Shown here one piece after another: positions 31,772 through 48,583 of a DNA stretch of 64,000 nt (the stretch's first letter is position 1; each line of letters starts with the position of its first letter). Origin of the DNA: an uncultured Gemmatimonadota bacterium (GTDB lineage Bacteria > SM23-81 > DAOVCL01); the NCBI GenBank assembly GCA_964626665.1, contig CAZVGK010000004.1, positions 90,613 to 154,612 of the forward strand, read 5' to 3'. The translations under genes and the position numbers were made by a program. The notes under the pieces are model-generated. The model saw only the letters and a list, made by a program, of their open reading frames with translations, was not told the origin of the DNA and made no database searches.

Positions 31772-31787
31772 CTTCAGCTCCTTTAGA

Positions 31788-32168: not shown

Positions 32169-33043
32169 CTCTGTGGAGGGAGGGCAGCGCGCATCAGTAC
32201 CCCCACCTCCGCCGGTTCCCTGGCCACTTTAATTCCCACCTTCTCAAACGCGGCGATCTTTCCTTCGGCGGTTCCGGCACCGCCGGAGATTATCGCCCCC
32301 GCATGTCCCATTCTCTTTCCTGGAGGAGCGGTCAGGCCGGCGATAAAGGCCACCACCGGCTTATGGAAGTGCTCCTCAAAGTAGCGAGCTGCCTCTTCCT
32401 CATCCTGGCCGCCTATCTCACCGACCAGGACAACCCCCTGTGTCTCTTCATCCTCTTCAAACAACTGGAGGCAATCTATGAACTTTAGTCCGATAATGGG
32501 GTCACCCCCCACTCCGATACAGGTGGATATTCCCAACCCTGTAGAGACAATGTGGGTGGCTATCTCATAGGTGAGGGTGCCACTGCGGGAGATAACGCCA
32601 ATCCCTCCTGGCTGGAATATGAGGGCGGGAAGTATACCCACCTCAGCCTCCCCCGGCGAGATCAGGCCTGGACAGTTGGGGCCGATCAACCTTACCCCCC
32701 TATCGGAGAAGAACTTCACCACCTTGACCATATCCAGGGCCGGAATCCCCTCTGAGATGCAGACCACCAGCGCGACCCCTGAATCCCCTGCCTCGTAAAG
32801 GGCATCAACGGCGAACTTGTAAGGAACGAATACGATGGAGGTATTAGCTCCCGTCTCCTTAACCGCCTCCTTTACCGTGTTGAAGACAGGAACTCCAGCT
32901 ATTACCTCTCCCCCCTTACCTGGCGTCACCCCAGCCACGACTTGAGTGCCATATTGGAGCATCCGCGCCGTGTGAAATGAACCATCCCTACCGGTGATCC
33001 CCTGGACAACCAATCTCGTGTTTTCATCAACTAAGATACTCAT
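32165..33043 (-). CDS. sucD: Succinyl-CoA synthetase alpha subunit
   Basis: [31 protein letters not shown]. Confidence 0.97.
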
Positions 33044-33112
33044 CTTCCATGGAAATCCGAATTTCTAAATCCGAATGACGAAAAAATCAATTCTCAAATT
33101 CGTCATTAGTCA

Positions 33113-33478
33113 TTAGGATTTCGTCTTCCCCCCCTTTCTTCTAATTGCCGCAAGTATCAGGTTCAGCTCTCTCACTTCTTTCCCATAACTACTTGCTTCC
33201 TTTTACAGTTCCGGGGTAACCTTACCAATCATCCTTAACCAGTACCCACATTCCCTCGATTCCTTCTTACAGATTCCGATCTTATGCAAGAAATCTTTCT
33301 TGGATTCGGCATCATCGGCCTCACAATAGTTTGCTCCCACACTTGTGCCCGCCCTGACCAACTGCCCAATAAGTGGAAGAGTCACAACGTTCTTGGGAAT
33401 TTTCTTAGCAAACTCGATAATTGCTTCCCCAAACTTAGCTGTCCTTTCCTCCAAATCATATATTTTCTTATTCGTCAT
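33113..33478 (-). pseudogene. Four-helix-bundle (23S rRNA IVS/TIGR02436-type) gene with in-frame TAA
   Basis: DLEERTAKF...QLVRAGTSVGANYCEA...KESRE..YWL; TAA at 33203-33205, then the frame continues EVRELNLILAAIRRK to 33113. Confidence 0.85.
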
Positions 33479-33488
33479 TCGTCATTCG

Positions 33489-34637
33489 TCATTCTGATTT
33501 CGTCATTTTCTTTACCAGTTCTATCGCCTTTTTTGCCCCCGCGGACATCGAGGAGACGGGAGTAAGGGGAGTTGCCTTGAGTATCTCCCTGGCCTTATCC
33601 TCATTCGTCCCAGTCAACCGCACCACTATGGGCAGGGAGAGCGGCCCCTTGCCGATCGCCTGGAGAAGGCCATTGGCCACATCATCACACCTGGTAATCC
33701 CCCCAAAGATATTGAACAAGACGGCCTTTACGTTCTTGTCCCGCAGAAGGATATCCATAGCATTGGTCACCTTCTCCGGGGATGAGCTCCCCCCCACATC
33801 GAGAAAATTGGCCGGCTCTCCCCCATATCTTTTAATCAGATCCATCGTAGCCATAGCCAGGCCCGCCCCATTTACCACACAGCCGATATCTCCGGACAGC
33901 TTGATATAGGAGAGCCCCTTGGACTTAGCCTCGATCTCGGTGGCCTCCTCTGGAGTTGGCTCCCGCATAGCCTGAATATCCGCATGCCGATACAGCCCAC
34001 TGTCATCTATATTTATCTTGGCATCCAGTGCCCAGACCTGATGGTCCCGGGAGACAACAAAGGGGTTTATCTCAGCCAGGCTGGCATCTGACTCAACAAA
34101 TGTCTGGTAGAGTTTACCCAACACATCCGCGGCCTGCAGCACGATCCCGTAGTCATCATAGAGATGAAAGCCAAGCTCCCGGGCCTGATGGGGAAGCAGG
34201 CCGGTAGATGGGTCCACCGGATACTTATGAATCTTCTCCGGGGTCTCCGCGGCAACCTGCTCGATCTCCACCCCTCCCGCCGCAGAGACCATCACCACGG
34301 GCCTCTTGCTCCCCCGGTCCACAATTATACCCAAGTAAGCTTCGGAAAGGACATCTATGGCCTGAGTCACCAAAACCTTCTTGACCACCTCTCCTTTAAT
34401 GCTCATCCCCAATATCTGCTCAGCAAGTTTCTCCGCTTCCTGGGAAGATCTGGCGATCTTCACCCCCCCGGCCTTTCCCCTTCCCCCCACCAAAACCTGT
34501 GCTTTGACCACAACCTCCCCCCCCATCTCCGCGGCAATCTCCCTGGCCTCCTCAGGGTGAGAGGCGACCTTGCCTGAAGGCACGGGAATCCCATATCGCT
34601 TAAAAATCTCCTTTGCTTGATATTCCTGGATTTTCAT
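33489..34637 (-). CDS. sucC: Succinyl-CoA synthetase beta subunit
   Basis: KAQVLVGGRGKAGG, EINP, NGAGLAMATMD, NIFGGITRCD. Confidence 0.97.
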   Translation of the reverse strand: MKIQEYQAKEIFKRYGIPVPSGKVASHPEEAREIAAEMGGEVVVKAQVLVGGRGKAGGVKIARSSQEAEKLAEQILGMSIKGEVVKKVLVTQAIDVLSEAYLGIIVDRGSKRPVVMVSAAGGVEIEQVAAETPEKIHKYPVDPSTGLLPHQARELGFHLYDDYGIVLQAADVLGKLYQTFVESDASLAEINPFVVSRDHQVWALDAKINIDDSGLYRHADIQAMREPTPEEATEIEAKSKGLSYIKLSGDIGCVVNGAGLAMATMDLIKRYGGEPANFLDVGGSSSPEKVTNAMDILLRDKNVKAVLFNIFGGITRCDDVANGLLQAIGKGPLSLPIVVRLTGTNEDKAREILKATPLTPVSSMSAGAKKAIELVKKMTKSE

Positions 34638-34921: not shown

Positions 34922-36580
34922 TCAGAATATATCGATCATTCTGGCCAGGGCCGCCTTCCCCCTATACTCGGGCAGGAGCATGGGAGCCCGCCTCTGCGGC
35001 TTGATGCCCGCTTTCTTCAGGGTCTCCACATACCTGTGCAAATGCTCAAGGGTTAGTTTACCCCCCTTCTTCCCCGACTGCACCCACTTGGCGGCAGACA
35101 TCCCCGCCCTCCTGCCAAAAACCATAGTGTCAAGAGTTGAATTTCCCATGAGTCTATTCTTGCCATGAACACCTCCTGATACCTCGCCAGCAACCCAGAG
35201 TCCTTCAAGAGTGCTATGGCCCCATGGGTCTGTTTCTACTCCCCCGTTCTGATAATGAAGTGTAGGGAATACAAGAACAGGATCTTTTGTCATGTCTATG
35301 TCATATCTATTAAACATTCTTCGCATCCCTGGGAATGCTTTTTCAATATAACCTTTACCATTCTTTACCTCAATCATAGGCGTATCAAGCCATACACCTC
35401 TTATGCCAACAGGGGTCGTAATTCCCTTGCCTCTAACATAACATTCCCTTATTAAGGCAGCTGCTTCAACATCTCTTGGCTCAAGTGGAAATACAAATGC
35501 CTCTCCATCTACATTTACTGGCTGGGCTCCAGAGCTGCGGAGCTTCTCTGTAAGAAGATAACCTATTATTTGCACTGGATATGCAGCACCTGTGGGGTGA
35601 TACTGAACTGTGTCTACATCTCTTAACTTTGCACCTGCACGATATGCAAGAACAAGACCATCAGCAGTAGCACCATAATGATTTGTTGTAGGAAATCCTC
35701 TTATGTGTAGTCTCCCAAAACCACCTGTCGCCAGAATAGTAGCTTTTGCTTCCACTATTTTATATTCTCCTGTCTCAAGGTTGTATAAGAGTGCGCCAGT
35801 AACTCTATTCTCACCATCTGTGAGAAGTTCAATCGCAGGATAGTGTTCAATACATCCTATCTCTCTACTTCTAAATTCGTCTCTTATTACTCTGAATTCC
35901 TCAAGTCCTGTATAATCTCTACAAGAATGCAATCTCCTTATTGATGTTCCACCTCCCCATTTTTCCACAAAATCTCCACTTTCTTCCTTGTCAATTATTG
36001 CTCCTAATTCATGTAGCCAGTAAATTATGAAAGGAGCATCCTCAACCAGCGCTCTTAAAACATCTGGTTTGTTTGTAAAGTGCCCCCCACCCATAGTATC
36101 CAGGTAATGTCTCTGTATAGAATCAACTTCTCTATCTGCTGCCTGAGTGCCTCCTTCTGCCATTATTGAATTAGCATCACCATGCCTTAATTTATTAACA
36201 AGTAATATTTTATCTTTTGAAATCCCTTGTTCATTCGCCCAGATACAAGCAGTCGTGCCGGCAAGCCCTCCACCTATTACCATAATGTCTACACTATAAT
36301 CAACTTTTTTAATGTCAACTTCTCCTTCCTCTACAAGAGGGTATGCCTCAAGTAAATCAACCACTGGATTTGTGCCAAAATCTCCTTTATTCTGACCAAT
36401 TGATATTTTCCTTTTCCCCCCAGCCACATAATCTGGATGTAGTTTGAGCGTTTCCTCTCGCTCCTCCATACTCATAGCAGGAGGAATGTAATCTTTTCTT
36501 TTTTGCCTGGTCTTATGCACTTTATCTATAAGTTTATACATATACTCAGGATAACCCTCAATGTATTTTGCCTCAGCCAT
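34922..36580 (-). CDS. frdA: Soluble fumarate reductase/succinate dehydrogenase-family flavoprotein
   Basis: GGGLAG; ANSIMAEGG; QYHPT; TEKLR; PRD; LHYQNGG; HGKNRLMGNS. Confidence 0.85.
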   Translation of the reverse strand: MAEAKYIEGYPEYMYKLIDKVHKTRQKRKDYIPPAMSMEEREETLKLHPDYVAGGKRKISIGQNKGDFGTNPVVDLLEAYPLVEEGEVDIKKVDYSVDIMVIGGGLAGTTACIWANEQGISKDKILLVNKLRHGDANSIMAEGGTQAADREVDSIQRHYLDTMGGGHFTNKPDVLRALVEDAPFIIYWLHELGAIIDKEESGDFVEKWGGGTSIRRLHSCRDYTGLEEFRVIRDEFRSREIGCIEHYPAIELLTDGENRVTGALLYNLETGEYKIVEAKATILATGGFGRLHIRGFPTTNHYGATADGLVLAYRAGAKLRDVDTVQYHPTGAAYPVQIIGYLLTEKLRSSGAQPVNVDGEAFVFPLEPRDVEAAALIRECYVRGKGITTPVGIRGVWLDTPMIEVKNGKGYIEKAFPGMRRMFNRYDIDMTKDPVLVFPTLHYQNGGVETDPWGHSTLEGLWVAGEVSGGVHGKNRLMGNSTLDTMVFGRRAGMSAAKWVQSGKKGGKLTLEHLHRYVETLKKAGIKPQRRAPMLLPEYRGKAALARMIDIF

Positions 36581-36633
36581 CTTTCCCTCCTAAATTTAGG
36601 TATTTAGGTATCTATGTATTTAGGTGTTTGTAG

Positions 36634-37410
36634 TTAATCTGTTTCTCTTTCTCGCTCAGCATATAATTTTTCAAGTTCCTCTCTGCTGAGACTTGTAATT
36701 TTATCCATATCTTTATTGAACTTACCTTCTTTTATTTCTTTTATTCTCGTTAAAAGGTGTTCTGGTTCAGGGCTACTATACCTTCCATACATTCTCCTTC
36801 CAAGCTGTGCCACATTATATTGCACAATCTCTGAGGGACATCTCAGTGCACAAAGTCCACACTGAATACAATCAAAAGACTCATTGGCAACTGCTTCAAA
36901 ATCTCCTTTAATTGCTGCCTGAACGTAGTCCATTACTTCAAGATCCTGAGGACAGGCTTTTGTGCAAGTATTACATGACACGCATCTTGCTACCTCAGGA
37001 TAATACTTAAAAAATACATTAACATTATATTCTTCTTTGCCAATATCATAGGGGGCTTTCTCTGCTGGTGTAAATGGTATCTGGACAAGATACATCCCAT
37101 CTTCTACACGAGTCTGACAGGCCATGGCAGTCTGCAGTTTATACTCTCCTTTTTTTCGATAAACTGTGGAACAAGCACCGCAAAAACCCTGCCTGCACCC
37201 ACAGCCCCTTATAAATTTATACCCTGCATACTCTATTGCAGTTAGTATTGTTAAATCAGCCGGAACTCTATATCCCCTTCCCATAATATAAATTGTTACC
37301 CAGTGCTCAACATCCTTCTCTTCAACCCCAGCGACCATAGGTCTGCTCGCAGTGGCGATCCTTTCCATTATCTCCTTTGGATCTAATCTTTTGGTTTTTT
37401 CTCCTTTCAT
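36634..37410 (-). CDS. frdB: Fumarate reductase-type Fe-S subunit (2Fe-2S + 2[4Fe-4S])
   Basis: GCRQGFCGAC...MACQT; CVSCNTCTKACP; CIQCGLCALRCP. Confidence 0.82.
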   Translation of the reverse strand: MKGEKTKRLDPKEIMERIATASRPMVAGVEEKDVEHWVTIYIMGRGYRVPADLTILTAIEYAGYKFIRGCGCRQGFCGACSTVYRKKGEYKLQTAMACQTRVEDGMYLVQIPFTPAEKAPYDIGKEEYNVNVFFKYYPEVARCVSCNTCTKACPQDLEVMDYVQAAIKGDFEAVANESFDCIQCGLCALRCPSEIVQYNVAQLGRRMYGRYSSPEPEHLLTRIKEIKEGKFNKDMDKITSLSREELEKLYAERERETD

Positions 37411-37464
37411 TGTTGCCTCCTCTACTAACAGGGATTTTAAGAGATTGAAAGAGATTTTTTTCTT

Positions 37465-37923
37465 TTATCTATTATATTCTCTTTTCATCCCTGTTAATTT
37501 AAAAAAAGCATTCTCTTCCAAACTCAATCCTTCTTTCTCTATTTGATAGAAATTGTCAAATCTTTTAAATTCTAACTTCTTTTTGGCAAAGTTAACTAAA
37601 AATCCAATCAAAATTTCACTTATCCTCAATTGTGATATTAATTGGGCCTTATGATCCTCGTTCAACTCCTTTACTGCTTTAACTTCGACTATAACCTTCC
37701 CTTCTACCAATAAATCTAGAATATACTTGCTAACCTCTTGATTTTCGTATATAACAGGAAATCCCTTTTCAGAATCAACTTTCAAATCCTTGCTTAACTC
37801 AATAAATAAAGCTCTATGGTACCTTCGCTCTAATAAACCTGGACCAAATTGATTATGTACTTTATAAAAAGCCTTAATAATTTTATCGGTAATACCTCTA
37901 TACTTAGAATCATCCCATTTCAT
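37465..37923 (-). CDS. GxxExxY protein (PD-(D/E)XK-like)
   Basis: VHNQFGPGLLERRY, DLLVEGKVIVEVKAV, GFLVNF. Confidence 0.92.
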   Translation of the reverse strand: MKWDDSKYRGITDKIIKAFYKVHNQFGPGLLERRYHRALFIELSKDLKVDSEKGFPVIYENQEVSKYILDLLVEGKVIVEVKAVKELNEDHKAQLISQLRISEILIGFLVNFAKKKLEFKRFDNFYQIEKEGLSLEENAFFKLTGMKREYNR

Positions 37924-37933
37924 TTTTTATCTC

Positions 37934-38860
37934 TTAATCTCTCTTCCAATCCCTGTTTTTTTTTGTGGGACTCAAAAGACTCTTTTTCACAAGTAATGGT
38001 TCTGGATTAATATAATTTAAGTCAAATCTGCAATACTTTTTGTCTATCCCAAATGCAACTGCCATAAGCTGAGTAAAGTAAAATATAGGAATTTCCTTAA
38101 AATCAGGGTGTTTTTCTTTTACCTCTCTTTGCCTATTATCCAAATTAAAAGCACATAAAGGGCAACTTGTTACCATTGCTTCTGCCCCCTCTCTTTGGGC
38201 ATGGGTGAGAATATCGTAGGCCAGATCAGCAACTACCCACTTATCCTGCACTGTCTGGTAGCTGCCGCAGCAGACCTTCTTGTAAGGATTGTCCACCACC
38301 TCTGCTCCTAAGGCGGAGAGGAGATCGGCCTCAATGGTGGGATCTTCGGGGTCGTCTATGGCCACCTCCTTGGGCCGCAACAACATACACCCATAGTAGG
38401 GGGCAACCTGCAGGCCCTTCAGGGGCATCTTCACCTTTACCTTTTCAAAACCCATCTCCTGAAGCAGGGAGAGAAAATGCACCACCTCCACCTCCCCTCG
38501 GTAATCCTCCTCCAGATACATCAGGTCATTGAGCTTAGTTAAGTCCTCTGGGTTCTCCTTCATCCGGAGATTTGCCTGTTTCAGGGTGTTGTAACACATT
38601 GAACAGAGGGTAATCAACCGGTGCTCATCATTGAGAGTACCATTCTCGTTTAGCTCCTGCACGCGGATGAGGTTTCTGATGGGAGCCAAATGGTGGATGA
38701 GGTCATCCGCCGTCAGGGAGAAGACTGTCCCACAACAGTTCCACTTGGGGAGCTCCACCAGCTCGATACCCAAAGTCTTGGCCACAGCCAGCGCGGAATC
38801 CTCAAAGTTCTTTGCTGTAGTCTTCAGCGTACATCCAGGATAATATGGCAGTTTCATCAT
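37934..38860 (-). CDS. hdrB: Heterodisulfide reductase subunit B (copy 2)
   Basis: YYPGC, WNCCG, CSMC, YYGC, VCCGS, SCPLC; start at MMKLP. Confidence 0.92.
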   Translation of the reverse strand: MMKLPYYPGCTLKTTAKNFEDSALAVAKTLGIELVELPKWNCCGTVFSLTADDLIHHLAPIRNLIRVQELNENGTLNDEHRLITLCSMCYNTLKQANLRMKENPEDLTKLNDLMYLEEDYRGEVEVVHFLSLLQEMGFEKVKVKMPLKGLQVAPYYGCMLLRPKEVAIDDPEDPTIEADLLSALGAEVVDNPYKKVCCGSYQTVQDKWVVADLAYDILTHAQREGAEAMVTSCPLCAFNLDNRQREVKEKHPDFKEIPIFYFTQLMAVAFGIDKKYCRFDLNYINPEPLLVKKSLLSPTKKNRDWKRD

Positions 38861-38888
38861 ATTAGTGCGTAAGACATAAGTGCGTAAG

Positions 38889-39242
38889 TTAGATGCTTCT
38901 GTGGAATTTCCATAATAGCTTCCCAACTTCTGTGTGTAAATCTTGCAATTTTCTATGCTCTTCAATGGTAAGGTAATTCAATCTTAAAGAGAAATCTAAA
39001 AGATATTCTACTTCTGCAGAAGAACCTAAAGCAATATTAAGAAATTGTTTTAACTCTTTTTTATTTTGTCTTCCATATCCTTCTACTATATTTGTAGGGA
39101 TTGATAAAGCTGCTCTTTGCAATTGAGAAGTAATCCCATAGATTCCTTCTTTTGGGAATTTTTTTGTTTCTAAATAAATTTAAAATGCCAATTCATCTGA
39201 TTTTCGCCAAACTATTAACTTTTTATATCCTTTCTCTTCCAT
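38889..39242 (-). pseudogene. Four-helix-bundle gene with in-frame TAA at codon 21
   Basis: MEEKGYKKLIVWRKSDELAF*IYLETKKFPKEGIYGITSQLQRAALSIPTNIVEG...FLNIALGSSAE. Confidence 0.88.
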
Positions 39243-39295
39243 TCTGCCACCTTTTACTTATGCTCTTATGCTCTTATGCTCTTATACTCTTTCAC

Positions 39296-39700
39296 TCATC
39301 CGGTAAACTTGCGAAAACCGCTTACCAAGGCAATCTGGGGCAACCTGTTCATCTCATCCGCGGGAATTTTCTTTATATCAATATGGTCTATGGCTTTTCT
39401 CAAAGTTATCTGCCTTAATGCCTCTGCTACCTTTGATACATCTAATCCGCGCGGACACCTCACAGTACAGGTAAAACAAGAAGCACAGAGCCACATAGCT
39501 TTGGATTCTAAAACATCCTCTTGACCCAATTGAACCCTTCTCATAAGCTGCGAAGGTGTTATATCCATCTCAGTAACCATCGGACAACTGCCAGAACAAA
39601 CACCACACTGGTCACAACGAGTTATTGCTTGCCCACTCAGTTCACTAACTTTATCCAAAAATTCTACATTCTTATCTGTAATTATAACCTTCTTAATCAT
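39296..39700 (-). CDS. hdrC: Heterodisulfide reductase subunit C (copy 2)
   Basis: CDQCGVCSGSCP; WLCASCFTCTVRCPRG. Confidence 0.92.
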   Translation of the reverse strand: MIKKVIITDKNVEFLDKVSELSGQAITRCDQCGVCSGSCPMVTEMDITPSQLMRRVQLGQEDVLESKAMWLCASCFTCTVRCPRGLDVSKVAEALRQITLRKAIDHIDIKKIPADEMNRLPQIALVSGFRKFTG

Positions 39701-39746
39701 ATCAGTTCACAAGTGCATAAGTCATAAGTGCACAAGTCTTATGCTC

Positions 39747-42116
39747 TCATGCTCTCTTCTCCAATGTTTTCCTCTTCTCGTCAGGAATTGGACCCGCTTT
39801 TTTAATGAAGTCTGCTAAACTGTTTATATTATTAACAAATCCCCCTAACATTACAGTAACAAACTGGACAAATCTTACTCTCTCTTCTTCTATCCCTTCT
39901 TCTCTCAAAATATTATTTACTTTAGCAATATTTGACTTTATTGCTGAAATAACATGGGGATATGGAGATGACTTTTCTTCAGCCTCTCCCAAAAGTATTC
40001 CATCAGTCCCCGCTGCAAAAGCTTGCAATATAAGTTTAGGTGTAACCCTGCTACAACTCGGAATCCTGATTATCCTTGAATTTAAAGAATAAGACATCTT
40101 TGCTGTCCCAACATTGTCAGATAACCTATAAGCAGTCATATCATCTGCGAAAACAAGAAATCTTGTTTCTCCTTTTTTCTTACTTTTTAAGACAGACTCG
40201 ACTTCTGCCAGAAGTTGGGAATTTGTATAAACATGCAAATCCAGAGCATCTTTGGGACAAGACCCAATACAACTACCACATCCTTTACACAGAGCCTCAT
40301 TTATTTGGGCTAATTTTTCGGAAATTGATATTGCATTAAATGGGCATTGGTCTATGCATAGTTTACATCCATCACAAAGTTCTTCATGAACAAATGCCAT
40401 AATAGGGTCCAATGAATATTCTCCCTGATTCATAAGCCTTATAGCCCTTGAAGAAGCCGCCGATGCCTGAGCTACAGTATCTGGTATGTCTTTAGGTCCT
40501 TGAACTGTCCCAGCTAAAAATACACCATCGACAAGGGTATCAACAGGCTTAAATTTTGGATGTGCCTCCTGTAGAAAACCATCAGGGCTTTTGGCAAGTT
40601 TCAACATGTCTGCAATTTTATCAGTTCCTTTATTTGGACGCAAACCAACTGAGAGCACAACTGTATCAAATTCCGATTCTATTATCTGACGGGTAAGTGT
40701 ATCTTCAACTTTCAAAATCACTCTTTTATGGTCAGAATTTTTCATTACTTCTGCCACCCTGCCACGAATAAACTTAATTCCCATATTCTGTGCTCTTTTA
40801 TAATATTCTTCGAATCCCTTCCCATAAGCCCTAAGATCTGTATAAAATATATAAATATCCCTTTTCGGATTAGAATGTTTCAATAAACTTGCAAGTTTTG
40901 TTGCATACATACAGCATATTCTTGAGCAATACTCATTTCCGACTTGTTCATCTCTGGACCCCACACATTGAATAAAGGCAATTCTTTTCCCCAGGTCTCG
41001 TATTGGAGCACCCTCCGATGCATGGACTATCATTCGTTCCATCTGCAATGCAGTTACCACATTTTGGAATTTTCCGTAACCATAAACCTTCTTTTCTCCG
41101 GCATCAAAAATATCGTAGCCTGTGGCAACAATTATAGTATCGGCAATAAACTTTACCTTTTCCGGTTTCTGGTTAAAATCCACAGCACCCCCTGGGCAGT
41201 ATTTTTCACAGAGACCGCATACTTTTCCTCCTTTAGTAAGACGCAAACAAGTGTTCTCATCAATCAAATTTTTATAGGGAACCGCAAAACCAAAGGGTAT
41301 GTAAGTCGCCTTGCGAGAAATTAACCCTTCCTCAAACTCATCTACCACCTTAACAGGGCACTTCTCTTCACAGATTCCGCAGGCAGTGCATTTATCCATA
41401 TCTATATATCTCGGTTTTTTCTTAACAGTAACCTCAAAGGTCCCAAGATAGCCATCAATGTTTTCTATTTCTGAATATGTGAGCAAATTTATATTAGGAT
41501 TAGCTGGAACATCAGCCATTTTGGGTGAAAGTATACAGGCTGCACAATCCTCTGTCGGAAAAGTCCTTGATAGTTGTGCCATTTTGCCACCTATAGAAGG
41601 CTCTTTCTCAACAAGATAAACATCAAAACCTGCATCACCTAAATCTAATGCTGCTTGAATCCCTGCTATGCCTGCTCCTATCACTAATACCCTTTTGCCA
41701 ATAGGCATCATTTTTTTCTTTAAAGACTCATCCAATCTCGCTTTTGCTATAGCCATATTAGTGAGGTCTTTGGCTTTTTCTGTTGCATCCTTGGGAAAGT
41801 CAAAATGGGGCCATGCACATTGCTCTCTGATGTTTGCCATCTCAAAAACATAAGGAGATAAACCGGCTGCCTCAACAGTTCTCATAAAAGTTGCTCCCTG
41901 AAACTGTGGCGAACAGGCAGCTATTACTACTCTGTCCAATTTATGCTCCTTTACATCATCCAATACAAGTTTCTGCCCCAGATCCGAACACATATGCGTA
42001 TAATCCTTTGCCATAACAACATCAGGCTGTTTCTCGGCAAATGAGGTTACTTCCTTAACATCAATAACCTCAGATATATTACCACCACAGTGGCATACAT
42101 ATACCCCAATTCTCAT
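39747..42116 (-). CDS. hdrA: HdrA fused to a degenerate MvhD-like domain
   Basis: VYVCHCG, ANIREQC, GAGIAG, FPTEDCAAC, CVGSRD..CSRICCMYATK, EAHPK; MvhD-like C-terminus lacking most Cys. Confidence 0.92.
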   Translation of the reverse strand: MRIGVYVCHCGGNISEVIDVKEVTSFAEKQPDVVMAKDYTHMCSDLGQKLVLDDVKEHKLDRVVIAACSPQFQGATFMRTVEAAGLSPYVFEMANIREQCAWPHFDFPKDATEKAKDLTNMAIAKARLDESLKKKMMPIGKRVLVIGAGIAGIQAALDLGDAGFDVYLVEKEPSIGGKMAQLSRTFPTEDCAACILSPKMADVPANPNINLLTYSEIENIDGYLGTFEVTVKKKPRYIDMDKCTACGICEEKCPVKVVDEFEEGLISRKATYIPFGFAVPYKNLIDENTCLRLTKGGKVCGLCEKYCPGGAVDFNQKPEKVKFIADTIIVATGYDIFDAGEKKVYGYGKFQNVVTALQMERMIVHASEGAPIRDLGKRIAFIQCVGSRDEQVGNEYCSRICCMYATKLASLLKHSNPKRDIYIFYTDLRAYGKGFEEYYKRAQNMGIKFIRGRVAEVMKNSDHKRVILKVEDTLTRQIIESEFDTVVLSVGLRPNKGTDKIADMLKLAKSPDGFLQEAHPKFKPVDTLVDGVFLAGTVQGPKDIPDTVAQASAASSRAIRLMNQGEYSLDPIMAFVHEELCDGCKLCIDQCPFNAISISEKLAQINEALCKGCGSCIGSCPKDALDLHVYTNSQLLAEVESVLKSKKKGETRFLVFADDMTAYRLSDNVGTAKMSYSLNSRIIRIPSCSRVTPKLILQAFAAGTDGILLGEAEEKSSPYPHVISAIKSNIAKVNNILREEGIEEERVRFVQFVTVMLGGFVNNINSLADFIKKAGPIPDEKRKTLEKRA

Positions 42117-42248
42117 AAGCTTAGCTGGCTCTTAAATTTAGGTTATTTTCCCTTTTAGTGTTAACCATAAAGTTATTGCAGCGGGAACCCTATAGGCCGT
42201 TCCCATTATATCCAATTTCTTCTCCATAATTTACCGACAGGAAGCCCA

Positions 42249-42276
42249 AAAATAACCCAAATTCCTAATCTGTCAA
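42249..42276 (-). promoter_or_regulatory. sigma70 promoter for the hdrA2-hdrC-hdrB-frdBA module
   Basis: TTGACA-N16-TATTTT. Confidence 0.55.
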
Positions 42277-42412
42277 GTGGAAAAACGCAGATTTTATTTA
42301 TTTAGATGCTTCTTTTGCCTTATCTCCATCTCATCTTGTCAATCCAACTCCCTTTGATCGCCAACTGCTATGAAGGCTGGCATTCTCCCCGCAAACTCCT
42401 AAGTTGCCAAAA

Positions 42413-42862
42413 CTAATTTAACCTCAGATCCTCAGCTATCCTTGCGGCTAGCTCTGGGACCTTTGCCTGGATCTGGGGACTGCAGCCCAGGTGAAATCTG
42501 TCGTTCTCTACCACCTCTATGGCGTAGACCTCGATTAACCCCGGCACCTCATAACCCAACCTTTTCCCTAAACCAATCGCTGTGCCCAGCCCAACCCCGT
42601 GGCTGCCGGAGGGGAGACCCATCCCCAAATCCTCCAGCCGCAGCTTACGCATCCTCCCTAAATTTTTATCTCTCCCCTTGATGGAATCCACGATGATCGC
42701 CCTATCGTATCCGACAAGTTCCTCTAAGAGGGGAATCCCAGCCAGGTTGGCCTCCACCACTTCCACCCCGGAGAGAAGCCTCCCCACCTCCCTGGCTACC
42801 AAGATCCCCACCCCATCATCGGCCAGCAGGGGGTTACCCACCCCTACTATAACGGTCCTCAT
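42413..42862 (-). CDS. Hydrogenase maturation protease
   Basis: GVGNPLLADDGVG, IIVDS, GSHG. Confidence 0.93.
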   Translation of the reverse strand: MRTVIVGVGNPLLADDGVGILVAREVGRLLSGVEVVEANLAGIPLLEELVGYDRAIIVDSIKGRDKNLGRMRKLRLEDLGMGLPSGSHGVGLGTAIGLGKRLGYEVPGLIEVYAIEVVENDRFHLGCSPQIQAKVPELAARIAEDLRLN

Positions 42863-44319
42863 AGCTGGCGCAGGGTCCTCTCCACTCCCCCTTCCGGGTT
42901 CCTAATGTTCACCTCTAAGGGCATATCTCCGGGAAGGGAATGGGTGGCACAGGCCAGGCAGGGATCATAGGCCCGAAAGGCCATCTCCACCATGTTGAGC
43001 AGCCCATCGGAGACCTTCCCTCCCTTGATCAACCCCTTGGCCGCCTTTTCAATGGACATACAGACGGCCGCAGAGTTGTTCACCGTGGCCACGATCAGGT
43101 TTACCTCGGTAAGGATGCCTCGCTCATCTGTCTTGTAATGATGATAGAGGGTTCCCCGGGGGGCCTCCACCACGCCAATTCCTTCATCAGGAACAGCAGT
43201 GGGGATATTCCGCACCTGCGGATCGAGGATCTCCTCATCCTGAGCCAGCTCTAAGAGCCTCTCCGCGGCATAGAGGAGCTCCACCAACCTGGCCCAGTGA
43301 TAGGCCAGGGTGTTGTGGGCCGGCTTCCCCCCCAATGTCTCATACATTTTCTCATATTCCTGTTGGGCCAAGGGGGTGGCCATCCCCTCGGAGACGTTCA
43401 GCCTGGCCAAAGGGGCTACCCGATAGACGCCACTATCCTTCCCATCCACGAACCCCTTCCAGCCCACATCCTTGAGGTAGGGGAATTTTATGTAGCTCCA
43501 GGGTTCCACCCTCTCGGCGATGTATTTCAGATAATCCCGCGGCTTGAACTTGAGGAACTGGTGGCCCTCAGGATCAACCACCCTGATGTCGCCATCATAG
43601 AAGTTGACCTTGTTATTTTCATCAACCAACCCCATATAATAGGTATGATGCTTGTAGATATCCCCCACGATCACATCCACATACTCCTTGTTCTTGAGGA
43701 CAATCTCCTCAAAGGCCTGCAGGGCAAAGCGGGCAAACTCCACAGCATCCTTCCCGGTCTGGATATACTCCTCTCTCTCCTCTTTGCTCACCCCCTTGGA
43801 GACCCCTCCAGGGAGGTTGCATACCGGGTGGATGACCCTCCCCCCCTGCTTGCTGATAATGTCCCTCAACCTCCTCCTGATCTCTATCACCCTCTTGGCG
43901 GCATCCAACCCCACCTTCTGGATGACACCTAAGATGTTCCTCTCCCCGGCTGGCGCCTGGGGCCCCACGATGAAGTCCGGCCCCCCCAAGAAGAAGAAGT
44001 GGAGGGTGTGGTCCTCGGCCATAAAGGCGGAGTTGACCAGCTCCCTGATCTTCTTGGCTGCCGGTGGCGGATCAACCTGAAAGAGGTCATCGAGGGTCTT
44101 TCCCGAGGCCATATGGTGAGCGGTGGGACAGACCCCACAGATCTTGGGGGTAAGCCGGGGCATCTCCTCGGCCATCCGCCCCTCACAGAACTTCTCAAAC
44201 CCCCGCAGCTCCGGGACCTGGAAGTAGGCCTTCTCCACATCCCCCTTTTCATCCAAGAATATCTCTATCTTCCCATGACCCTCTAACCTGGTGATAGGGT
44301 CTATTGTGATCCGTTTCAT
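42859..44319 (-). CDS. mvhA: Group 3c [NiFe]-hydrogenase large subunit
   Basis: TRLEGH, RGFE, ICGVC, EAPRG, RAYDPCLACATH plus cleavable tail. Confidence 0.95.
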   Translation of the reverse strand: MKRITIDPITRLEGHGKIEIFLDEKGDVEKAYFQVPELRGFEKFCEGRMAEEMPRLTPKICGVCPTAHHMASGKTLDDLFQVDPPPAAKKIRELVNSAFMAEDHTLHFFFLGGPDFIVGPQAPAGERNILGVIQKVGLDAAKRVIEIRRRLRDIISKQGGRVIHPVCNLPGGVSKGVSKEEREEYIQTGKDAVEFARFALQAFEEIVLKNKEYVDVIVGDIYKHHTYYMGLVDENNKVNFYDGDIRVVDPEGHQFLKFKPRDYLKYIAERVEPWSYIKFPYLKDVGWKGFVDGKDSGVYRVAPLARLNVSEGMATPLAQQEYEKMYETLGGKPAHNTLAYHWARLVELLYAAERLLELAQDEEILDPQVRNIPTAVPDEGIGVVEAPRGTLYHHYKTDERGILTEVNLIVATVNNSAAVCMSIEKAAKGLIKGGKVSDGLLNMVEMAFRAYDPCLACATHSLPGDMPLEVNIRNPEGGVERTLRQL

Positions 44320-44656: not shown

Positions 44657-45637
44657 TTACTTCATTATCTTTCTGCGCAAGAGAGACGAGGGAAGGCTAT
44701 ACATATAGAAGAGGCCTGCCGGATCGGGGATCTGGTCAACCAACTTCTGCACCTCCTCGTCCGTCATCTGCTCTTCACCCTCGATCCCCAAGATGGAGGC
44801 CACAAAGGAGAGCACCCTTGCCCCCTGATCCTTCACCCCCTTTACCGGCCCAAAGCAACCGCGGCAGGGCATATGGGCATTGATGCAACGTTCCCCACAG
44901 CCGGATCTGGTCGCCGGTCCCAGGCAGATAACCCCCTGAGCCAAAAAGCATTTCTCCGGGTCCAAAATCACCTCATAAGGCCTTTTTATCTCCTTCATCA
45001 TCAACTTCTCAGGCTTGGAATCCGCCAGGGGACAGGTATCGCAGAGGGACTTATCCGGGGCCAGCACCGCCCCCTTCTCCGGCAGCTTTCCCTCCAATAT
45101 AGCATTTATCGCCTTCATTATGAGATCCGGGGGCGGGGCACAGCCAGGGATGTAGTAGTCCACCGGGATCACCTGATCAAGGGTATGCACCGTATTCCAG
45201 AACTCCGGTATGGTGAGCTCCTGGCCATCCACGATTGTCTTGGTCTGCGGCAGGACGCCTTTGGGGTTGTCCATAGTGGGCACCCCCTTGTAGACCCGCT
45301 CAAATATGGTCTCCCTGTTCCAGAAGTTGGCCAATCCGGGTATCCCCCCTATGTGGGCACAGGAACCGAAGGCAATCACCAGGCCTGACTTCCTTCGCAA
45401 AAGCTTAACCATCTCCTCCTGCTCCTCCGTCCTGATGGCCCCATTGATGAAGCTCACCGCGAGCTCCCCATCAGCCATTTGTTCCACATCCTTCTTCTTG
45501 AAGTCCAGGGCCACCGGCCAAAAGACTATATCCACCGCCCTAACAACCTCGAGGATATCCTCAGCCAGATCCACCACCGCCTCCTCACAGCCCCCACACG
45601 AGGCACACCAGTAAAATGCCACTTTCGGTTTAGCCAT
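44657..45637 (-). CDS. mvhG: Group 3c hydrogenase small subunit
   Basis: CASCGGCE, AFGSCAHIGG, IPGCAP, CLGPATRSGC, PCRGCFGP. Confidence 0.95.
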   Translation of the reverse strand: MAKPKVAFYWCASCGGCEEAVVDLAEDILEVVRAVDIVFWPVALDFKKKDVEQMADGELAVSFINGAIRTEEQEEMVKLLRRKSGLVIAFGSCAHIGGIPGLANFWNRETIFERVYKGVPTMDNPKGVLPQTKTIVDGQELTIPEFWNTVHTLDQVIPVDYYIPGCAPPPDLIMKAINAILEGKLPEKGAVLAPDKSLCDTCPLADSKPEKLMMKEIKRPYEVILDPEKCFLAQGVICLGPATRSGCGERCINAHMPCRGCFGPVKGVKDQGARVLSFVASILGIEGEEQMTDEEVQKLVDQIPDPAGLFYMYSLPSSLLRRKIMK

Positions 45638-46040: not shown

Positions 46041-46041
46041 C

Positions 46042-48582: not shown

Positions 48583-48583
48583 C

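What the first reader, a model, noticed from the sequence alone, without database searches (positions are those of the whole stretch)
34922..42116. HdrA-MvhD*/HdrC/HdrB co-transcribed with a soluble, anchor-less fumarate reductase: candidate Hdr-coupled (bifurcating) fumarate reductase
Seen: one promoter-led unit, hdrA::mvhD*-hdrC-hdrB-frdB-frdA, directly upstream of sucCD-korDABC, with no membrane anchor and no NAD(H)-binding subunit. The flavoprotein keeps the dicarboxylate-site residues (QYHPT, TEKLR, PRD, LHYQ, NRL) but has ANSIMAEGG where SdhA/FrdA carry the covalent-FAD His. Established: non-covalent FAD favours fumarate reduction; methanogen Tfr uses thiols via CCG domains; the soluble Hydrogenobacter Frd uses NADH. 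Inference: here fumarate is reduced through HdrABC, either directly or via a thiol/disulfide cycle, possibly as the high-potential arm of HdrA bifurcation that supplies reduced ferredoxin to the neighbouring Kor.
Basis: partly seen in the sequence, partly recalled or inferred. Interest (0 to 1): 0.85.

Follow-up and report, generated by a model that had tools for sequence, protein, structure and literature searches.

The report
Hdr-wired soluble fumarate reductase cassette
A soluble fumarate reductase is encoded next to heterodisulfide-reductase and hydrogenase genes, probably forming one complex that uses hydrogen to reduce fumarate and ferredoxin together; others have already proposed this, but nobody has tested it at the bench.

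Summary
The genes are there as described: hdrA::mvhD, hdrC, hdrB, frdB and frdA on the minus strand, upstream of sucCD and korDABG. A GxxExxY gene sits between hdrB and frdB. A 23S-IVP pseudogene sits between hdrC and hdrB. mvhG, mvhA and hycI lie directly upstream. The cassette is also a low-GC recombinant mosaic.

FrdA has Asn at the covalent-FAD histidine position, and this Asn is invariant in 34 of 34 relatives. It keeps all the dicarboxylate-site residues. It is not the genome's NadB, and it forms its own clade apart from NadB and from the SdhA/FrdA/TfrA-like sequences. No protein in the cluster has a predicted membrane helix.

Synteny with hdrCB holds in 32 of 43 related loci across many bacterial and archaeal phyla. 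Only 2 of the other 11 loci have enough flanking sequence to count as real negatives. The electron-donor module varies: Mvh, FlxABCD or NuoEF-like.

A complex prediction places the first [4Fe-4S] motif of FrdB against the N-terminal CCG cluster of HdrB and the tail of HdrC (score 0.85, best control 0.00). This favours direct wiring over a thiol shuttle.

The bifurcation idea, including the supply of ferredoxin to Kor, is already in print as a hypothesis (Rubin-Blum 2019, Koendjbiharie 2019, Williams 2021, Mitchell 2024). I found no biochemistry. Verdict: a real feature, interpretation supported, and a new member of a proposed kind.

The parts
44657..45637 (-). mvhG-like [NiFe] hydrogenase small subunit (group 3c type)
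   Evidence: VhuG model 215.8 bits and Oxidored_q6. 90% identical to the same-genus G002 copy.
42859..44319 (-). mvhA-like [NiFe] hydrogenase large subunit
   Evidence: VhuA model 403.9 bits and NiFeSe_Hases. 94% identical to the G002 copy.
42413..42862 (-). HycI-type hydrogenase maturation protease
   Evidence: PF01750, E 1.8e-7.
42249..42276 (-). Promoter-like hexamers TTGACA-16-TATTTT in the 296-nt spacer before hdrA
   Evidence: This is the best-scoring site, but the number of such sites in the region is not above that in shuffled sequence.
39747..42116 (-). hdrA::mvhD fusion (HdrA2-type architecture)
   Evidence: HdrA2 model 933 bits over positions 1-774 of 777, below its cutoff of 1100. 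FlpD domain at residues 654-775. 752 bits to PDB 8rvu_a. Low GC.
39296..39700 (-). hdrC (134 aa, two [4Fe-4S] motifs)
   Evidence: HdrC models about 75 bits. Eight invariant Cys in 19 sequences. 134 aa is the usual length in this family.
38889..39242 (-). 23S_rRNA_IVP (four-helix-bundle) pseudogene with one in-frame TAA, inserted between hdrC and hdrB
   Evidence: Sequence read. PF05635, E 3.4e-30, for the part after the stop.
37934..38860 (-). hdrB (two CCG domains). Codons 16-215 are high-GC3 and codons 226-307 are low-GC3.
   Evidence: CCG 71.7 bits. Ten invariant Cys. 143 bits to PDB 9sfi_C. Mosaic shown.
37465..37923 (-). GxxExxY / PDDEXK_3 gene inserted between hdrB and frdB
   Evidence: TIGR04256 126 bits and PF13366 118.5 bits. 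Absent from all 43 related loci. One 151-nt contig at depth 2 skips it.
36634..37410 (-). frdB-like iron-sulfur subunit (2Fe-2S plus two [4Fe-4S] motifs)
   Evidence: Fer2_4 and Fer4 dicluster hits. Twelve invariant Cys in 26 sequences. No SdhB/FrdB chain appears among the 60 PDB hits shown, of 121 at E up to 0.01.
34922..36580 (-). frdA-like flavoprotein. It has a 95-aa N-terminal extension, no PF02910 C-terminal domain and Asn at the covalent-His site. Its last ~75 codons are high-GC3.
32165..34637 (-). sucC (33489-34637), a 23S_rRNA_IVP ORF (33203-33478) and sucD (32165-33043)
   Evidence: Translations. 75% and 85% identical to the G002 SucC and SucD. IVP ORF: PF05635, E 1.8e-13. The names sucC and sucD rest on homologous clusters and my reading of the sequence; no family search was run on them.
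29033..31831 (-). korD, korA, korB and korG (2-oxoacid:ferredoxin oxidoreductase, four subunits)
   Evidence: ORFs. Homologous clusters in related loci. The names rest on similarity and my reading; no family search was run on them.
62265..63640 (-). fumA/fumB class I fumarate hydratase at the far upstream end of the same-strand Hdr/Mvh supercluster
   Evidence: PF05681 394.7 bits at G000:C4:153434-154240. tblastn with FumA and FumB representatives.

Best explanation
The cassette encodes a cytoplasmic fumarate reductase with no membrane anchor, and its two-subunit catalytic core is plugged directly into a heterodisulfide-reductase scaffold. The core is FrdA (non-covalent FAD, fumarate site) and FrdB (one 2Fe-2S and two [4Fe-4S] clusters). 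FrdB docks its first [4Fe-4S] cluster against the N-terminal non-cubane cluster of HdrB and is clasped by the C-terminal tail of HdrC.

The proposed electron path starts at H2, oxidised by the MvhAG hydrogenase encoded just upstream. Electrons enter through the MvhD domain fused to HdrA and reach the HdrA flavin, where they split. The high-potential branch runs HdrA -> HdrC -> HdrB -> FrdB -> FrdA-FAD -> fumarate. The low-potential branch reduces ferredoxin, which the adjacent KorDABG and other enzymes can use.

Shown here:
- the gene content
- conserved cofactor ligands and active-site residues
- conserved synteny across phyla
- a predicted interface that passed its controls

Inferred:
- fumarate as the substrate
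- H2 as the donor
- the direction of the reaction
- bifurcation
- that HdrB acts as a wire rather than a disulfide reductase
For: 1. Active site. H328, E345, R348, R369, D370, H442 and R476 are invariant in 34 of 34 sequences, and Asn is invariant at the covalent-His position. The model is confident (pLDDT 88.7, pTM 0.89). Its best structural match is E. coli FrdA 1kf6_A (TMq 0.68), while E. coli NadB ranks 47th.

2. Only candidate. This is the only SdhA/FrdA-like flavoprotein in a genome that is 99.65% complete. The only other full-length PF00890 protein passes the NadB equivalog cutoff (566.7 against 452.75).

3. Synteny. HdrB or HdrC is present in 32 of 43 related loci and HdrA in 28 of 43. 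These loci come from Cloacimonadota, Atribacterota, Aminicenantes, WOR-3, Fermentibacteria, Eisenbacteria, Phycisphaerae, Bathyarchaeia, Hecatellales and Thermoplasmata.

4. Deeper relatives. Same-phylum genomes at 50-52% identity carry parts of one order, fumAB-hdrC-hdrB-hdrA-mvhD-frdB-frdA-mvhG-mvhA. G004 has it through mvhG, where the contig ends. G003 has hdrC to mvhA. G006 has NuoEF-like genes inserted.

5. Cofactor ligands. All are invariant: FrdB 12 Cys, HdrB 10 Cys and HdrC 8 Cys.

6. Predicted complex of HdrB, HdrC and FrdB. ipSAE was 0.82, 0.85 and 0.85 in three runs, and the best of 3 controls was 0.00. The runs share at least 81% of their contacts, and the partner's pLDDT is at least 71. 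In the tool's calibration this mark was reached by 58 of 80 solved complexes and 2 of 110 mismatched pairs. FrdB residues 127-170 (which hold C143, C146, C149 and C153) touch HdrB residues 9-14 and 39-42 (which hold C10 and C42). No solved SdhB-HdrB-type complex, and no whole-chain FrdB homologue, appeared in the PDB by sequence, so the pass is unlikely to come from memory of a solved complex.

7. Match to TfrB. FrdB, HdrC and HdrB map onto successive parts of the methanogen TfrB model (positions 20-82, 130-222 and 255-473).

8. Pathway neighbours. Fumarase, sucCD and kor lie nearby. Kor is present in 18 of 43 loci.

9. No DsrC-family thiol carrier was found in the genome.

10. Thermodynamics, from my own knowledge and no call. 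Fumarate/succinate at about +30 mV is a stronger acceptor than CoM-S-S-CoB at about -140 mV. The reaction 2 H2 + fumarate + Fd(ox) is therefore comfortably exergonic.
Against: - There are no biochemical data and no RNA data. No RNA run holding this DNA was listed.
- The complex score is the model's own confidence, and it used my own shallow alignments (19-26 rows).
- HdrA was not in the modelled complex, so an alternative docking site for FrdB was not tested.
- HdrB keeps every ligand of a disulfide-reducing site, so a thiol/disulfide chemistry is not excluded.
- Three loci carry frdBA without hdrCB nearby. L043 has NuoEF- and GltD-like genes instead, L039 has hyp genes and a PyrK-like gene, and G009 has none. 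The FrdAB core therefore does not strictly need Hdr.
- The same-genus relative G002 has mvhGA-hycI-frdBA with no hdrA::mvhD, hdrC or hdrB in between.
- In the window the cassette is a recombinant mosaic interrupted by two inserted small genes, so co-transcription is unproven.
- The active-site residues are shared with L-aspartate oxidase, so on their own they do not prove that fumarate is the substrate.
Confidence: 0.55

Rival explanations
1. A two-step thiol cycle, as in methanogens. FrdAB together with HdrBC acts as a split thiol:fumarate reductase: it oxidises an unknown thiol pair to a disulfide, and an HdrABC set (this one, or the second set at 53105-56317) reduces the disulfide again with bifurcation. 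Fumarate would then be the acceptor only indirectly.
For: HdrB keeps all ten Cys of the two CCG motifs that form the disulfide-reducing site in methanogens. FrdB, HdrC and HdrB together cover the TfrB model. The literature calls these genes tfrAB and allows a route through a DsrC-like protein (PMC11636981, passages read). The window holds a second hdrA/hdrB/hdrC set.
Against: FrdB has no CCG domain of its own. The predicted complex puts a FrdB cluster motif directly against the N-terminal CCG cluster of HdrB, which suits electron transfer. No DsrC family member was found in the genome. CoM and CoB are cofactors of methanogens (my own knowledge).
Confidence: 0.15
2. A plain, non-bifurcating soluble H2 (or NADH):fumarate oxidoreductase. 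HdrA, HdrC and HdrB serve only as a chain of iron-sulfur clusters, and no ferredoxin is reduced.
For: All the evidence for physical wiring fits this reading equally well. The FrdAB core also pairs with NuoEF/GltD-like partners (L043). [quoted passage not shown]
Against: HdrA is conserved along its full length with bifurcating methanogen HdrA, including both ferredoxin-like domains (752 bits over residues 2-644). Kor, which consumes reduced ferredoxin, is adjacent in 18 of 43 loci and is even interleaved between hdrB and hdrA in the Aminicenantes-type loci. Wasting about 440 mV would be unusual for strict anaerobes (inference).
Confidence: 0.12
3. The complex runs in reverse as a confurcating succinate dehydrogenase. 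Succinate and reduced ferredoxin are oxidised together to make H2 (or NADH). This would allow succinate or propionate oxidation without a membrane-bound complex II.
For: The family occurs in fermenters and putative syntrophs such as Cloacimonadota, Atribacterota, Aminicenantes and Fermentibacteria. Kor and SucCD could run oxidatively and supply reduced ferredoxin and succinate. No ATP citrate lyase signature was found, although that search had no positive control.
Against: By standard potentials the reaction is uphill: the mean of +30 mV and about -450 mV is well above -414 mV (my own knowledge). Non-covalent FAD is associated with fumarate reduction rather than succinate oxidation; this is established knowledge, recalled. 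In several loci fumarase and malic enzyme lie beside the genes, as expected for a reductive branch.
Confidence: 0.1
4. FrdA acts on another substrate (L-aspartate, or another enoate or dicarboxylate), so the cluster is not a fumarate reductase.
For: FrdA falls below every curated cutoff (best is TfrA, 295 against 718). It has a unique N-terminal extension and lacks the C-terminal domain. Its catalytic residues are shared with NadB.
Against: A true NadB exists elsewhere in the genome. The family is a separate clade from NadB. It is always paired with an Fe-S subunit (FrdB immediately upstream in 41 of 41 clustered pairs). Fumarase, sucCD and kor are its recurrent neighbours. The best structural match is E. 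coli FrdA.
Confidence: 0.05

Closest known systems
Hdr-linked soluble 'TfrAB' fumarate reductase clusters proposed from genomes: flxABCD-hdrABC-korABCD-tfrAB in tubeworm symbionts and Thioflavicoccus (PMC6315080); the Mvh-Hdr-TFR-OGOR-SCS-fumarase cluster in Ca. Celaenobacter, Cloacimonadota (PMC8542988); the 'succinate operon' of Pseudoclostridium thermosuccinogenes (PMC7282089, citing the Koendjbiharie & van Kranenburg 2019 preprint)
   Same: The same gene set and the same proposed logic. A two-gene soluble fumarate reductase lies beside hdrABC with an Flx or Mvh donor module, and kor, sucCD and fumarase are neighbours. The Aminicenantes-type loci found here (hdrC-hdrB-korDABG-hdrA-flxDCBA-frdBA) match the published description of a four-subunit OGOR 'in between HdrA and HdrBC' (PMC11636981, legend read).
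   Different: Here MvhD is fused to HdrA. The cassette is a low-GC recombinant mosaic carrying two inserted small genes. The predicted FrdB-HdrB/HdrC contact is new as far as my searches reach. It argues that 'thiol:fumarate reductase' is a misnomer for this enzyme.
Methanogen thiol:fumarate reductase TfrAB (Heim et al. 1998; recalled, and seen only as a citation)
   Same: Soluble. TfrA is the best-scoring curated model for FrdA. FrdB, HdrC and HdrB together cover the domain order of TfrB.
   Different: FrdA scores 295 bits against a cutoff of 718. It lacks the C-terminal third of TfrA and has a 95-aa N-terminal extension. FrdB has no CCG domains; these are supplied by a separate HdrB. No CoM/CoB context.
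MvhAGD-HdrABC of methanogens (PDB 5odc, 8rvu)
   Same: HdrA 752 bits, HdrB 127-143 bits, all cluster ligands kept, and an Mvh-type hydrogenase adjacent.
   Different: MvhD is fused to HdrA, as in HdrA2. HdrC is short (134 aa) and its tail is predicted to hold FrdB. The proposed terminal acceptor is fumarate, through FrdAB, rather than the heterodisulfide.
Quinol:fumarate reductase / succinate:quinone reductase (E. coli FrdABCD, M. smegmatis Sdh1; type E enzymes with the HdrB-like SdhE)
   Same: The FAD and capping domains fold as in E. coli FrdA (TMq 0.68). The active-site residues are kept. HdrB scores 138 bits on the SdhE 'anchor' model. That model gives a precedent, in name, for a CCG protein partnering an SdhAB core; the precedent itself is recalled.
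   Different: No covalent-FAD His, no PF02910 domain, no membrane subunit and no 3Fe-4S motif. All curated SdhA/FrdA cutoffs are missed.
Five-subunit NADH-dependent soluble fumarate reductase of Hydrogenobacter thermophilus (Miura et al. 2008; seen only as described in PMC13147460)
   Same: A soluble, multi-subunit fumarate reductase that works in a reductive TCA context.
   Different: The window has no NAD(H)-binding subunit. Homology of the subunits was not tested, as no sequences were available.

Membership tests
Thiol:fumarate reductase TfrAB | Flavoprotein reaches the TfrA equivalog score (NF004900, cutoff 718 bits) | tested here: not met
   295.2 bits, covering only model positions 6-410 of 546.
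Thiol:fumarate reductase TfrAB | Iron-sulfur subunit carries its own two CCG domains (TfrB, 488-position model) | tested here: not met
   FrdB has Fer2_4 and Fer4 hits only and no CCG. It matches TfrB positions 20-82 only. No longer fused form was found (1 unrelated hit).
Thiol:fumarate reductase TfrAB | Uses CoM-SH and CoB-SH as electron donors | not testable with these tools
   Needs an enzyme assay.
Membrane-bound quinol:fumarate / succinate:quinone oxidoreductase (SdhA/FrdA family) | Histidine for covalent 8-alpha-N3-histidyl FAD | tested here: not met
   Asn137 aligns with the His of E. coli FrdA and of M. smegmatis SdhA. The Asn is invariant in 34 of 34 sequences.
Membrane-bound quinol:fumarate / succinate:quinone oxidoreductase (SdhA/FrdA family) | C-terminal helical domain (PF02910) and the curated SdhA/FrdA scores | tested here: not met
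   No PF02910 hit. TIGR01812 scores 257.9 against a cutoff of 567.3, and all other SdhA/FrdA models are below cutoff.
Membrane-bound quinol:fumarate / succinate:quinone oxidoreductase (SdhA/FrdA family) | Hydrophobic anchor subunit(s) encoded with the catalytic genes | tested here: not met
   No cassette protein has a 19-residue hydropathy window above 1.49. The anchor families were not searched across the whole genome.
Membrane-bound quinol:fumarate / succinate:quinone oxidoreductase (SdhA/FrdA family) | Dicarboxylate-binding and catalytic residues (His, Thr-Glu, Arg, proton-donor Arg, His, Arg) | tested here: met
   H328, T344/E345, R348, R369, H442 and R476 align with E. coli FrdA. All are invariant in the family except T344, which is kept in at least 90% of sequences.
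L-aspartate oxidase (NadB) | Reaches the NadB equivalog score and groups with NadB in a tree | tested here: not met
   TIGR00551 scores 247.2 against a cutoff of 452.75. FrdA lies in a separate clade (SH-aLRT 99) from the NadB clade (100) that holds the genome's own NadB.
Heterodisulfide reductase HdrABC | HdrB with two CX(n)CCGX(m)CXXC motifs, HdrC with two 4-Cys motifs, and full-length HdrA | tested here: met
   Ten Cys invariant in HdrB and eight in HdrC. HdrA aligns over residues 2-644 to PDB 8rvu_a (752 bits). The curated equivalog cutoffs are not reached (933 against 1100; 154.7 against 345; 75.6 against 160).
Heterodisulfide reductase HdrABC | Reduces CoM-S-S-CoB | not testable with these tools
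   Needs an enzyme assay. I expect not, since the organism is not a methanogen (inference).
Published Hdr-linked soluble fumarate reductase clusters (Flx/Mvh-Hdr-'TfrAB'-Kor) | Two-gene soluble fumarate reductase adjacent to hdrABC and a donor module (Flx or Mvh), with kor, sucCD or fumarase nearby | tested here: met
   Window gene order. The same pattern is seen in 32 of 43 loci and in deeper relatives.
Published Hdr-linked soluble fumarate reductase clusters (Flx/Mvh-Hdr-'TfrAB'-Kor) | Sequence homology to the published tfrAB / fumarate reductase genes (Endoriftia, Thioflavicoccus, P. thermosuccinogenes, Ca. Celaenobacter) | not tested
Flavin-based electron-bifurcating enzyme | Reduction of a low-potential acceptor that depends on the high-potential acceptor | not testable with these tools
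   Needs an anaerobic assay.

The most novel reading that the evidence does not exclude
Fumarate is the direct high-potential acceptor of HdrA-based flavin bifurcation, with no thiol or disulfide intermediate. In this reading the two non-cubane clusters of HdrB, the textbook disulfide-reducing site, have been re-used as a plain electron relay onto which FrdB docks. The FrdAB-HdrCB unit would then be a horizontally mobile 'acceptor plug' shared by more than ten bacterial and archaeal phyla and combined at will with Mvh (H2), Flx (NADH) or NuoEF-like donors. It would be a new class of bifurcating enzyme, and it would feed reduced ferredoxin straight to 2-oxoglutarate synthase.
Probability: 0.4. 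Interest if true: 0.75.

Novelty: new member of a known kind. Interest (0 to 1): 0.45.

Why it matters
If the complex works as proposed, fumarate reduction pays for the production of low-potential ferredoxin. That would be a new type of flavin-based electron bifurcation. It would make the reductive branch of the TCA cycle (fumarate -> succinate -> succinyl-CoA -> 2-oxoglutarate) much cheaper for anaerobes.

The hypothesis has been in print since 2019 and remains untested.
- The family is very widespread and highly conserved (70-89% identity across phyla), so there are many candidate genes for expression.
- The Fe-S partner is not a TfrB, so the current 'thiol:fumarate reductase' annotation is probably wrong.
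- There is now a specific predicted FrdB-HdrB/HdrC interface that can be mutated.

Tried and rejected
- Assembly chimera as the cause of the GC mosaic: rejected. Per-run contigs of 3831 and 8606 nt, with 0 differences and even depth (124-140), bridge all four composition junctions. A run not marked as a possible source (X20) covers the junction near 35200 with a 1235-nt contig.
- Gene conversion from the paralogous hdrB as the source of the high-GC patch in hdrB: rejected. The only other match in the genome is 70% identical over 167 nt.
- Recent transfer from one of the loci in hand: no donor found. The best nucleotide identity is 76-81%.
- Rosetta-stone fusion of FrdB with CCG domains: not found. 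The only longer hit carries Fer2_4 and HATPase_c. The tool itself calls a blank here weak evidence.
- RNA evidence for co-transcription: no RNA holder was listed.
- ATP citrate lyase by PF16114: no match, but the family matched none of the 14 control genomes either, so the result is uninformative. One ordinary citrate synthase was found.
- The Koendjbiharie & van Kranenburg preprint is not held. The phrase 'bifurcating fumarate reductase' is in 0 papers of the library. 'Flx-Hdr' together with 'fumarate reductase' is in 1 paper.
- Promoter and terminator scans: counts are not above those in shuffled sequence, so they say nothing about operon structure.

Full report
**1. What is in the sequence**

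On the minus strand the window carries, in order:
- mvhG (44657-45637), mvhA (42859-44319) and a HycI-type protease (42413-42862)
- a 296-nt spacer
- hdrA::mvhD (39747-42116, 789 aa) and hdrC (39296-39700, 134 aa)
- a 435-nt spacer
- hdrB (37934-38860)
- a GxxExxY/PDDEXK_3 gene (37465-37923)
- a frdB-like gene (36634-37410) and a frdA-like gene (34922-36580)
- sucC, sucD and korD/A/B/G

Further upstream on the same strand lie four free-standing mvhD genes, Fe-S proteins, two more hdrA-like genes, a second hdrB/hdrC pair, an HdrD-like protein with a GlcD-like flavoprotein, and fumA/fumB.

The claim of a single promoter cannot be supported, because promoter-like and terminator-like sites are no more common than in shuffled sequence.

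**2. The flavoprotein**

FrdA has a PF00890 FAD domain at residues 98-481, a 95-residue N-terminal extension and no PF02910 C-terminal domain. Its best curated model is methanogen TfrA, at 295 bits against a cutoff of 718. All SdhA, FrdA and NadB models are also far below cutoff.

Aligned with E. coli FrdA and M. smegmatis SdhA, the covalent-FAD histidine is replaced by Asn137. In an alignment of 34 family members, the following are invariant: N137, H328, E345, R348, R369, D370, H442 and R476.

The AlphaFold model is confident (pLDDT 88.7, pTM 0.89). This includes the N-terminal extension, where each 10-residue block scores 78-95. Foldseek ranks E. coli FrdA first (1kf6_A, TMq 0.68, about 452 aligned columns) and E. 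coli NadB 47th.

The genome is 99.65% complete and has only one other full-length PF00890 protein. That protein passes the NadB equivalog cutoff (566.7 against 452.75).

I built a quick maximum-likelihood tree of 112 rows. These were the window protein, 9 family members from loci, 8 proteins from relatives, the genome's own NadB, and 93 representatives of 400-700 aa taken from the 150 best hits. Shorter and longer hits were left out. The family forms a 23-row clade (SH-aLRT 99). It is separate from the 30-row clade that holds the genome's NadB (100). It is also separate from a 39-row clade, where 5 of 5 sampled members score best on TfrA-type, PRK07803-type or SdhA/FrdA models.

**3. The iron-sulfur partners**

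- FrdB has twelve invariant cysteines in 26 sequences. C72/77/80/98 fit a 2Fe-2S pattern. C143/146/149/153 and C181/184/187/191 are two 4-Cys ferredoxin motifs.
- FrdB has no CCG domain. No whole-chain relative appears among the 60 solved structures shown, of 121 hits at E up to 0.01.
- HdrB keeps all ten cysteines of the two CCG motifs.
- HdrC keeps eight cysteines.
- HdrA aligns over residues 2-644 with methanogen HdrA (752 bits). It carries a fused MvhD domain, which is the HdrA2 architecture.
- FrdB, HdrC and HdrB match successive parts of the TfrB model, at positions 20-82, 130-222 and 255-473. The three proteins together therefore resemble a split TfrB.

**4. Is the linkage more than chance?**

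A protein search found more than 120 clusters at 75-89% identity. A scan of one genome per species returned 43 loci. They are labelled Cloacimonadota, Atribacterota, Aminicenantes, WOR-3, Stahlbacteria, Fermentibacteria, Eisenbacteria, Phycisphaerae, Bacteroidota, Acidobacteriota, Thermodesulfobacteriota, Bathyarchaeia, Hecatellales and Thermoplasmata.

Using tblastn with at least 35% query coverage, the counts among those 43 loci were:

| Neighbour | Loci of 43 |
|---|---|
| HdrB or HdrC | 32 |
| HdrA | 28 |
| Kor subunits | 18 |
| Flx-like genes | 13 |
| Fumarase | 4 |
| SucCD | 3 |
| Mvh | 1 |

Of the 11 loci without HdrB or HdrC, 9 have at most about 4 kb upstream of frdB, or only a fragment of frdA. 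The two informative negatives are these:
- L043: Mrp-like gene, frdBA, then NuoE-like, NuoF-like and a 1091-aa GltD/NuoG/molybdopterin-like protein.
- L039: hyp genes and an Mrp-like gene before frdBA, and a PyrK-like start after it. This reading is by eye, apart from the Mrp-like/NUBPL gene, which was scanned.

Two arrangements recur:
- hdrA(::mvhD)-hdrC-hdrB-frdB-frdA
- hdrC-hdrB-korDABG-hdrA-mvhD/flxD-flxC-flxB-flxA-frdB-frdA. Here the three Flx-like genes carry Fer4, Fer4_22, and NAD_binding_1 with DHODB_Fe-S_bind domains.

In more distant relatives from the window's own phylum (50-52% identity), the order is fumA-fumB-hdrC-hdrB-hdrA-mvhD-frdB-frdA-mvhG-mvhA. G004 shows it through mvhG, where the contig ends. 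G003 shows hdrC to mvhA. G006 has NuoEF-like genes added. G009 (45% identity) has frdBA alone.

The FrdAB core is thus a module that almost always travels with HdrCB, while its donor module is interchangeable.

**5. Predicted contact**

HdrB, HdrC and FrdB (the partner) were folded together from my own alignments of 22, 19 and 26 rows.
- Scores were 0.82, 0.85 and 0.85. The best of three controls was 0.00.
- The runs share at least 81% of their contacts. The partner's pLDDT is at least 71.
- In the tool's calibration this mark was reached by 58 of 80 solved complexes and 2 of 110 mismatched pairs. Those counts hold only roughly here, because my own alignments were used and the job had three chains.

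FrdB residues 127-170 and 192, which include the C143-C153 motif, touch HdrB residues 9-14, 39-42, 55-62 and 113-117, which include C10 and C42. They also touch the HdrC tail at 109-134.

This is the geometry expected for cluster-to-cluster electron transfer. No solved complex of this kind turned up by sequence, so the pass is unlikely to be recall of a known structure. It remains a model's own confidence, not a measurement. HdrA and FrdA were not in the job.

**6. Mechanism proposed**

Steps that are shown:
- the gene content
- conserved ligands and catalytic residues
- conserved linkage
- an interface that passed its controls

Steps that are inferred:
- H2 is oxidised by MvhAG.
- Electrons enter through the fused MvhD domain to the HdrA flavin.
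- One electron path goes through HdrC, HdrB, FrdB and the FrdA FAD to fumarate. The other goes to ferredoxin.
- Kor, adjacent here and in 18 of 43 loci, uses that ferredoxin.

From standard potentials (my own knowledge: H2 -414 mV, fumarate about +30 mV, ferredoxin about -450 to -500 mV), the coupled reaction is strongly exergonic.

No DsrC-family protein was found in the genome, which removes the usual bacterial candidate for a protein disulfide substrate. I could not show an ATP citrate lyase. The PF16114 search was blank but had no positive control, and one ordinary citrate synthase is present. The pathway role may therefore be a reductive branch, or a reversed-citrate-synthase cycle, rather than a classical rTCA cycle.

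**7. Rivals**

- A thiol cycle as in methanogens. HdrB keeps a complete disulfide-site motif.
- A non-bifurcating wire.
- Reverse operation as a confurcating succinate dehydrogenase.
- A different substrate.

Their evidence and odds are given in the Rival explanations section.

**8. History of this copy**

The cassette has GC 0.30-0.44, set in flanks of 0.50-0.58. The genome mean is 0.489, and 9.6% of 1-kb windows fall below 0.42.

Codon-level comparison shows the following:

| Gene part | GC3 | Note |
|---|---|---|
| frdA codons 1-460 | 0.12-0.40 | 71-93% nucleotide identity to low-GC relatives L018 and L020, mostly 78-93% |
| frdA, last ~75 codons | 0.68-0.78 | |
| hdrB codons 16-215 | 0.60-0.80 | |
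| hdrB codons 226-307 | 0.20-0.30 | |

The same-genus genome G002 has mvhG (90%), mvhA (94%), hycI, frdB (70%), frdA (73%), sucC (75%) and sucD (85%). It has uniform GC of mostly 0.50-0.57 (0.48-0.59 from sucD to the upstream hdrA) and no hdrA::mvhD, hdrC or hdrB between hycI and frdB.

In the tree the window's FrdA sits next to a Cloacimonadota sequence, while the G002 copy branches deeper.

Independent per-run contigs reproduce the mosaic exactly, at even depth. The simplest reading is that a foreign low-GC cassette recombined into a resident frd locus, with at least four breakpoints (about 42350, 38900, 38200 and 35200). No donor is identified; the best nucleotide identity is 81%.

**9. Comparison with what is known, and novelty**

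The idea is in print:
- PMC6315080 (passages read) describes flxABCD-hdrABC interspersed with korABCD and 'tfrAB'. It proposes a complex that shuttles electrons to OGOR and the fumarate reductase.
- PMC11636981 (passages read) reports co-expression and restates the model, with electrons going directly or through ferredoxin and a DsrC-like protein.
- PMC8542988 (section 9 read) reports, in Ca. Celaenobacter, one cluster holding TFR, OGOR, fumarase, succinyl-CoA synthetase, a group 3c Mvh hydrogenase and Hdr. That is essentially the arrangement in this window.
- PMC7282089 (passages read) treats the P. thermosuccinogenes 'succinate operon' the same way. [quoted passage not shown]
- PMC13147460 (passages read) summarises the proposal in 2026.

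I found no enzymology. The phrase 'bifurcating fumarate reductase' occurs in 0 papers of the library, although subscription journals and supplements were not searchable.

- The membership tests show that the enzyme is not a TfrAB, not a classical SdhAB/FrdAB and not a NadB.
- The module spans many phyla and its donor is interchangeable.
- There is a predicted direct FrdB-HdrB/HdrC contact.
- This particular copy has a recombinant history.

I therefore rate it a new member of a proposed, still untested kind. Interest is moderate.

Noticed in passing
window 37465-37923; 38889-39242; 33203-33478: Three small 'intervening-sequence' type genes sit in the intergenic spacers of this metabolic gene string. 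They are a GxxExxY/PDDEXK_3 gene, a 23S_rRNA_IVP pseudogene with an in-frame TAA, and a 23S_rRNA_IVP ORF between sucC and sucD. None of the 43 related loci has the GxxExxY gene. One (L059) has an IVP-like ORF next to frdB.
   Followed up: partly
window 35150-42350 (breaks near 35200, 38200, 38900 and 42350): Compositional mosaic. The low-GC cassette has a high-GC3 patch inside hdrB and a high-GC3 3' end of frdA. The same-genus genome G002 has a uniform-GC frdBA with no hdrACB at this site. This looks like multi-tract recombination with a foreign low-GC allele. The donor is unknown.
   Followed up: yes
window 37454-37924: In run X16, one 151-nt contig at depth 2 (main depth 140) joins 37454 to 37924 with 27 other letters in between. 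This is a rare variant, or a relative, that lacks the GxxExxY gene.
   Followed up: no
window 45630-57398: An unusually dense Hdr/Mvh supercluster. It holds four free-standing mvhD genes, three Fe-S proteins (two with weak FlxC-like and FrhB-like similarity), a 975-aa HdrA-like protein, a second hdrA-hdrB-hdrC set and an HdrD-like Fer4+CCG protein.
   Followed up: partly
window 56334-59248; L018 14033-19042; L050: A GlcD-like FAD-linked oxidase (481 aa) lies near the frd cluster in the window, in L018 and in L050. An HdrD/GlcF-like Fer4+CCG protein (354 aa) accompanies it in the window and in L018 (clusters c28 and c40). Together they could be a lactate- or glycolate-type dehydrogenase feeding the same Hdr system.
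   Followed up: no
window 39257-39291: A short tandem repeat of an 8-mer (AGAGCATA, about 3.5 copies) lies just after hdrC. Extra short contigs pile up here in all four runs, so the motif occurs elsewhere in these metagenomes.
   Followed up: no
window 24000-28000: A second low-GC island (0.37-0.40). It holds an ORF at 26595-27392 that looks, by eye only, like a DNA methyltransferase.
   Followed up: no
L045, L056, L058 (archaeal loci): In the Bathyarchaeia and Hecatellales loci, hdrC-hdrB-frdB-frdA is preceded by an HdrD-like Fer4+CCG protein and an ADP-ribosylglycohydrolase-family gene. No hdrA lies within the 4-8 kb of upstream sequence held.
   Followed up: partly
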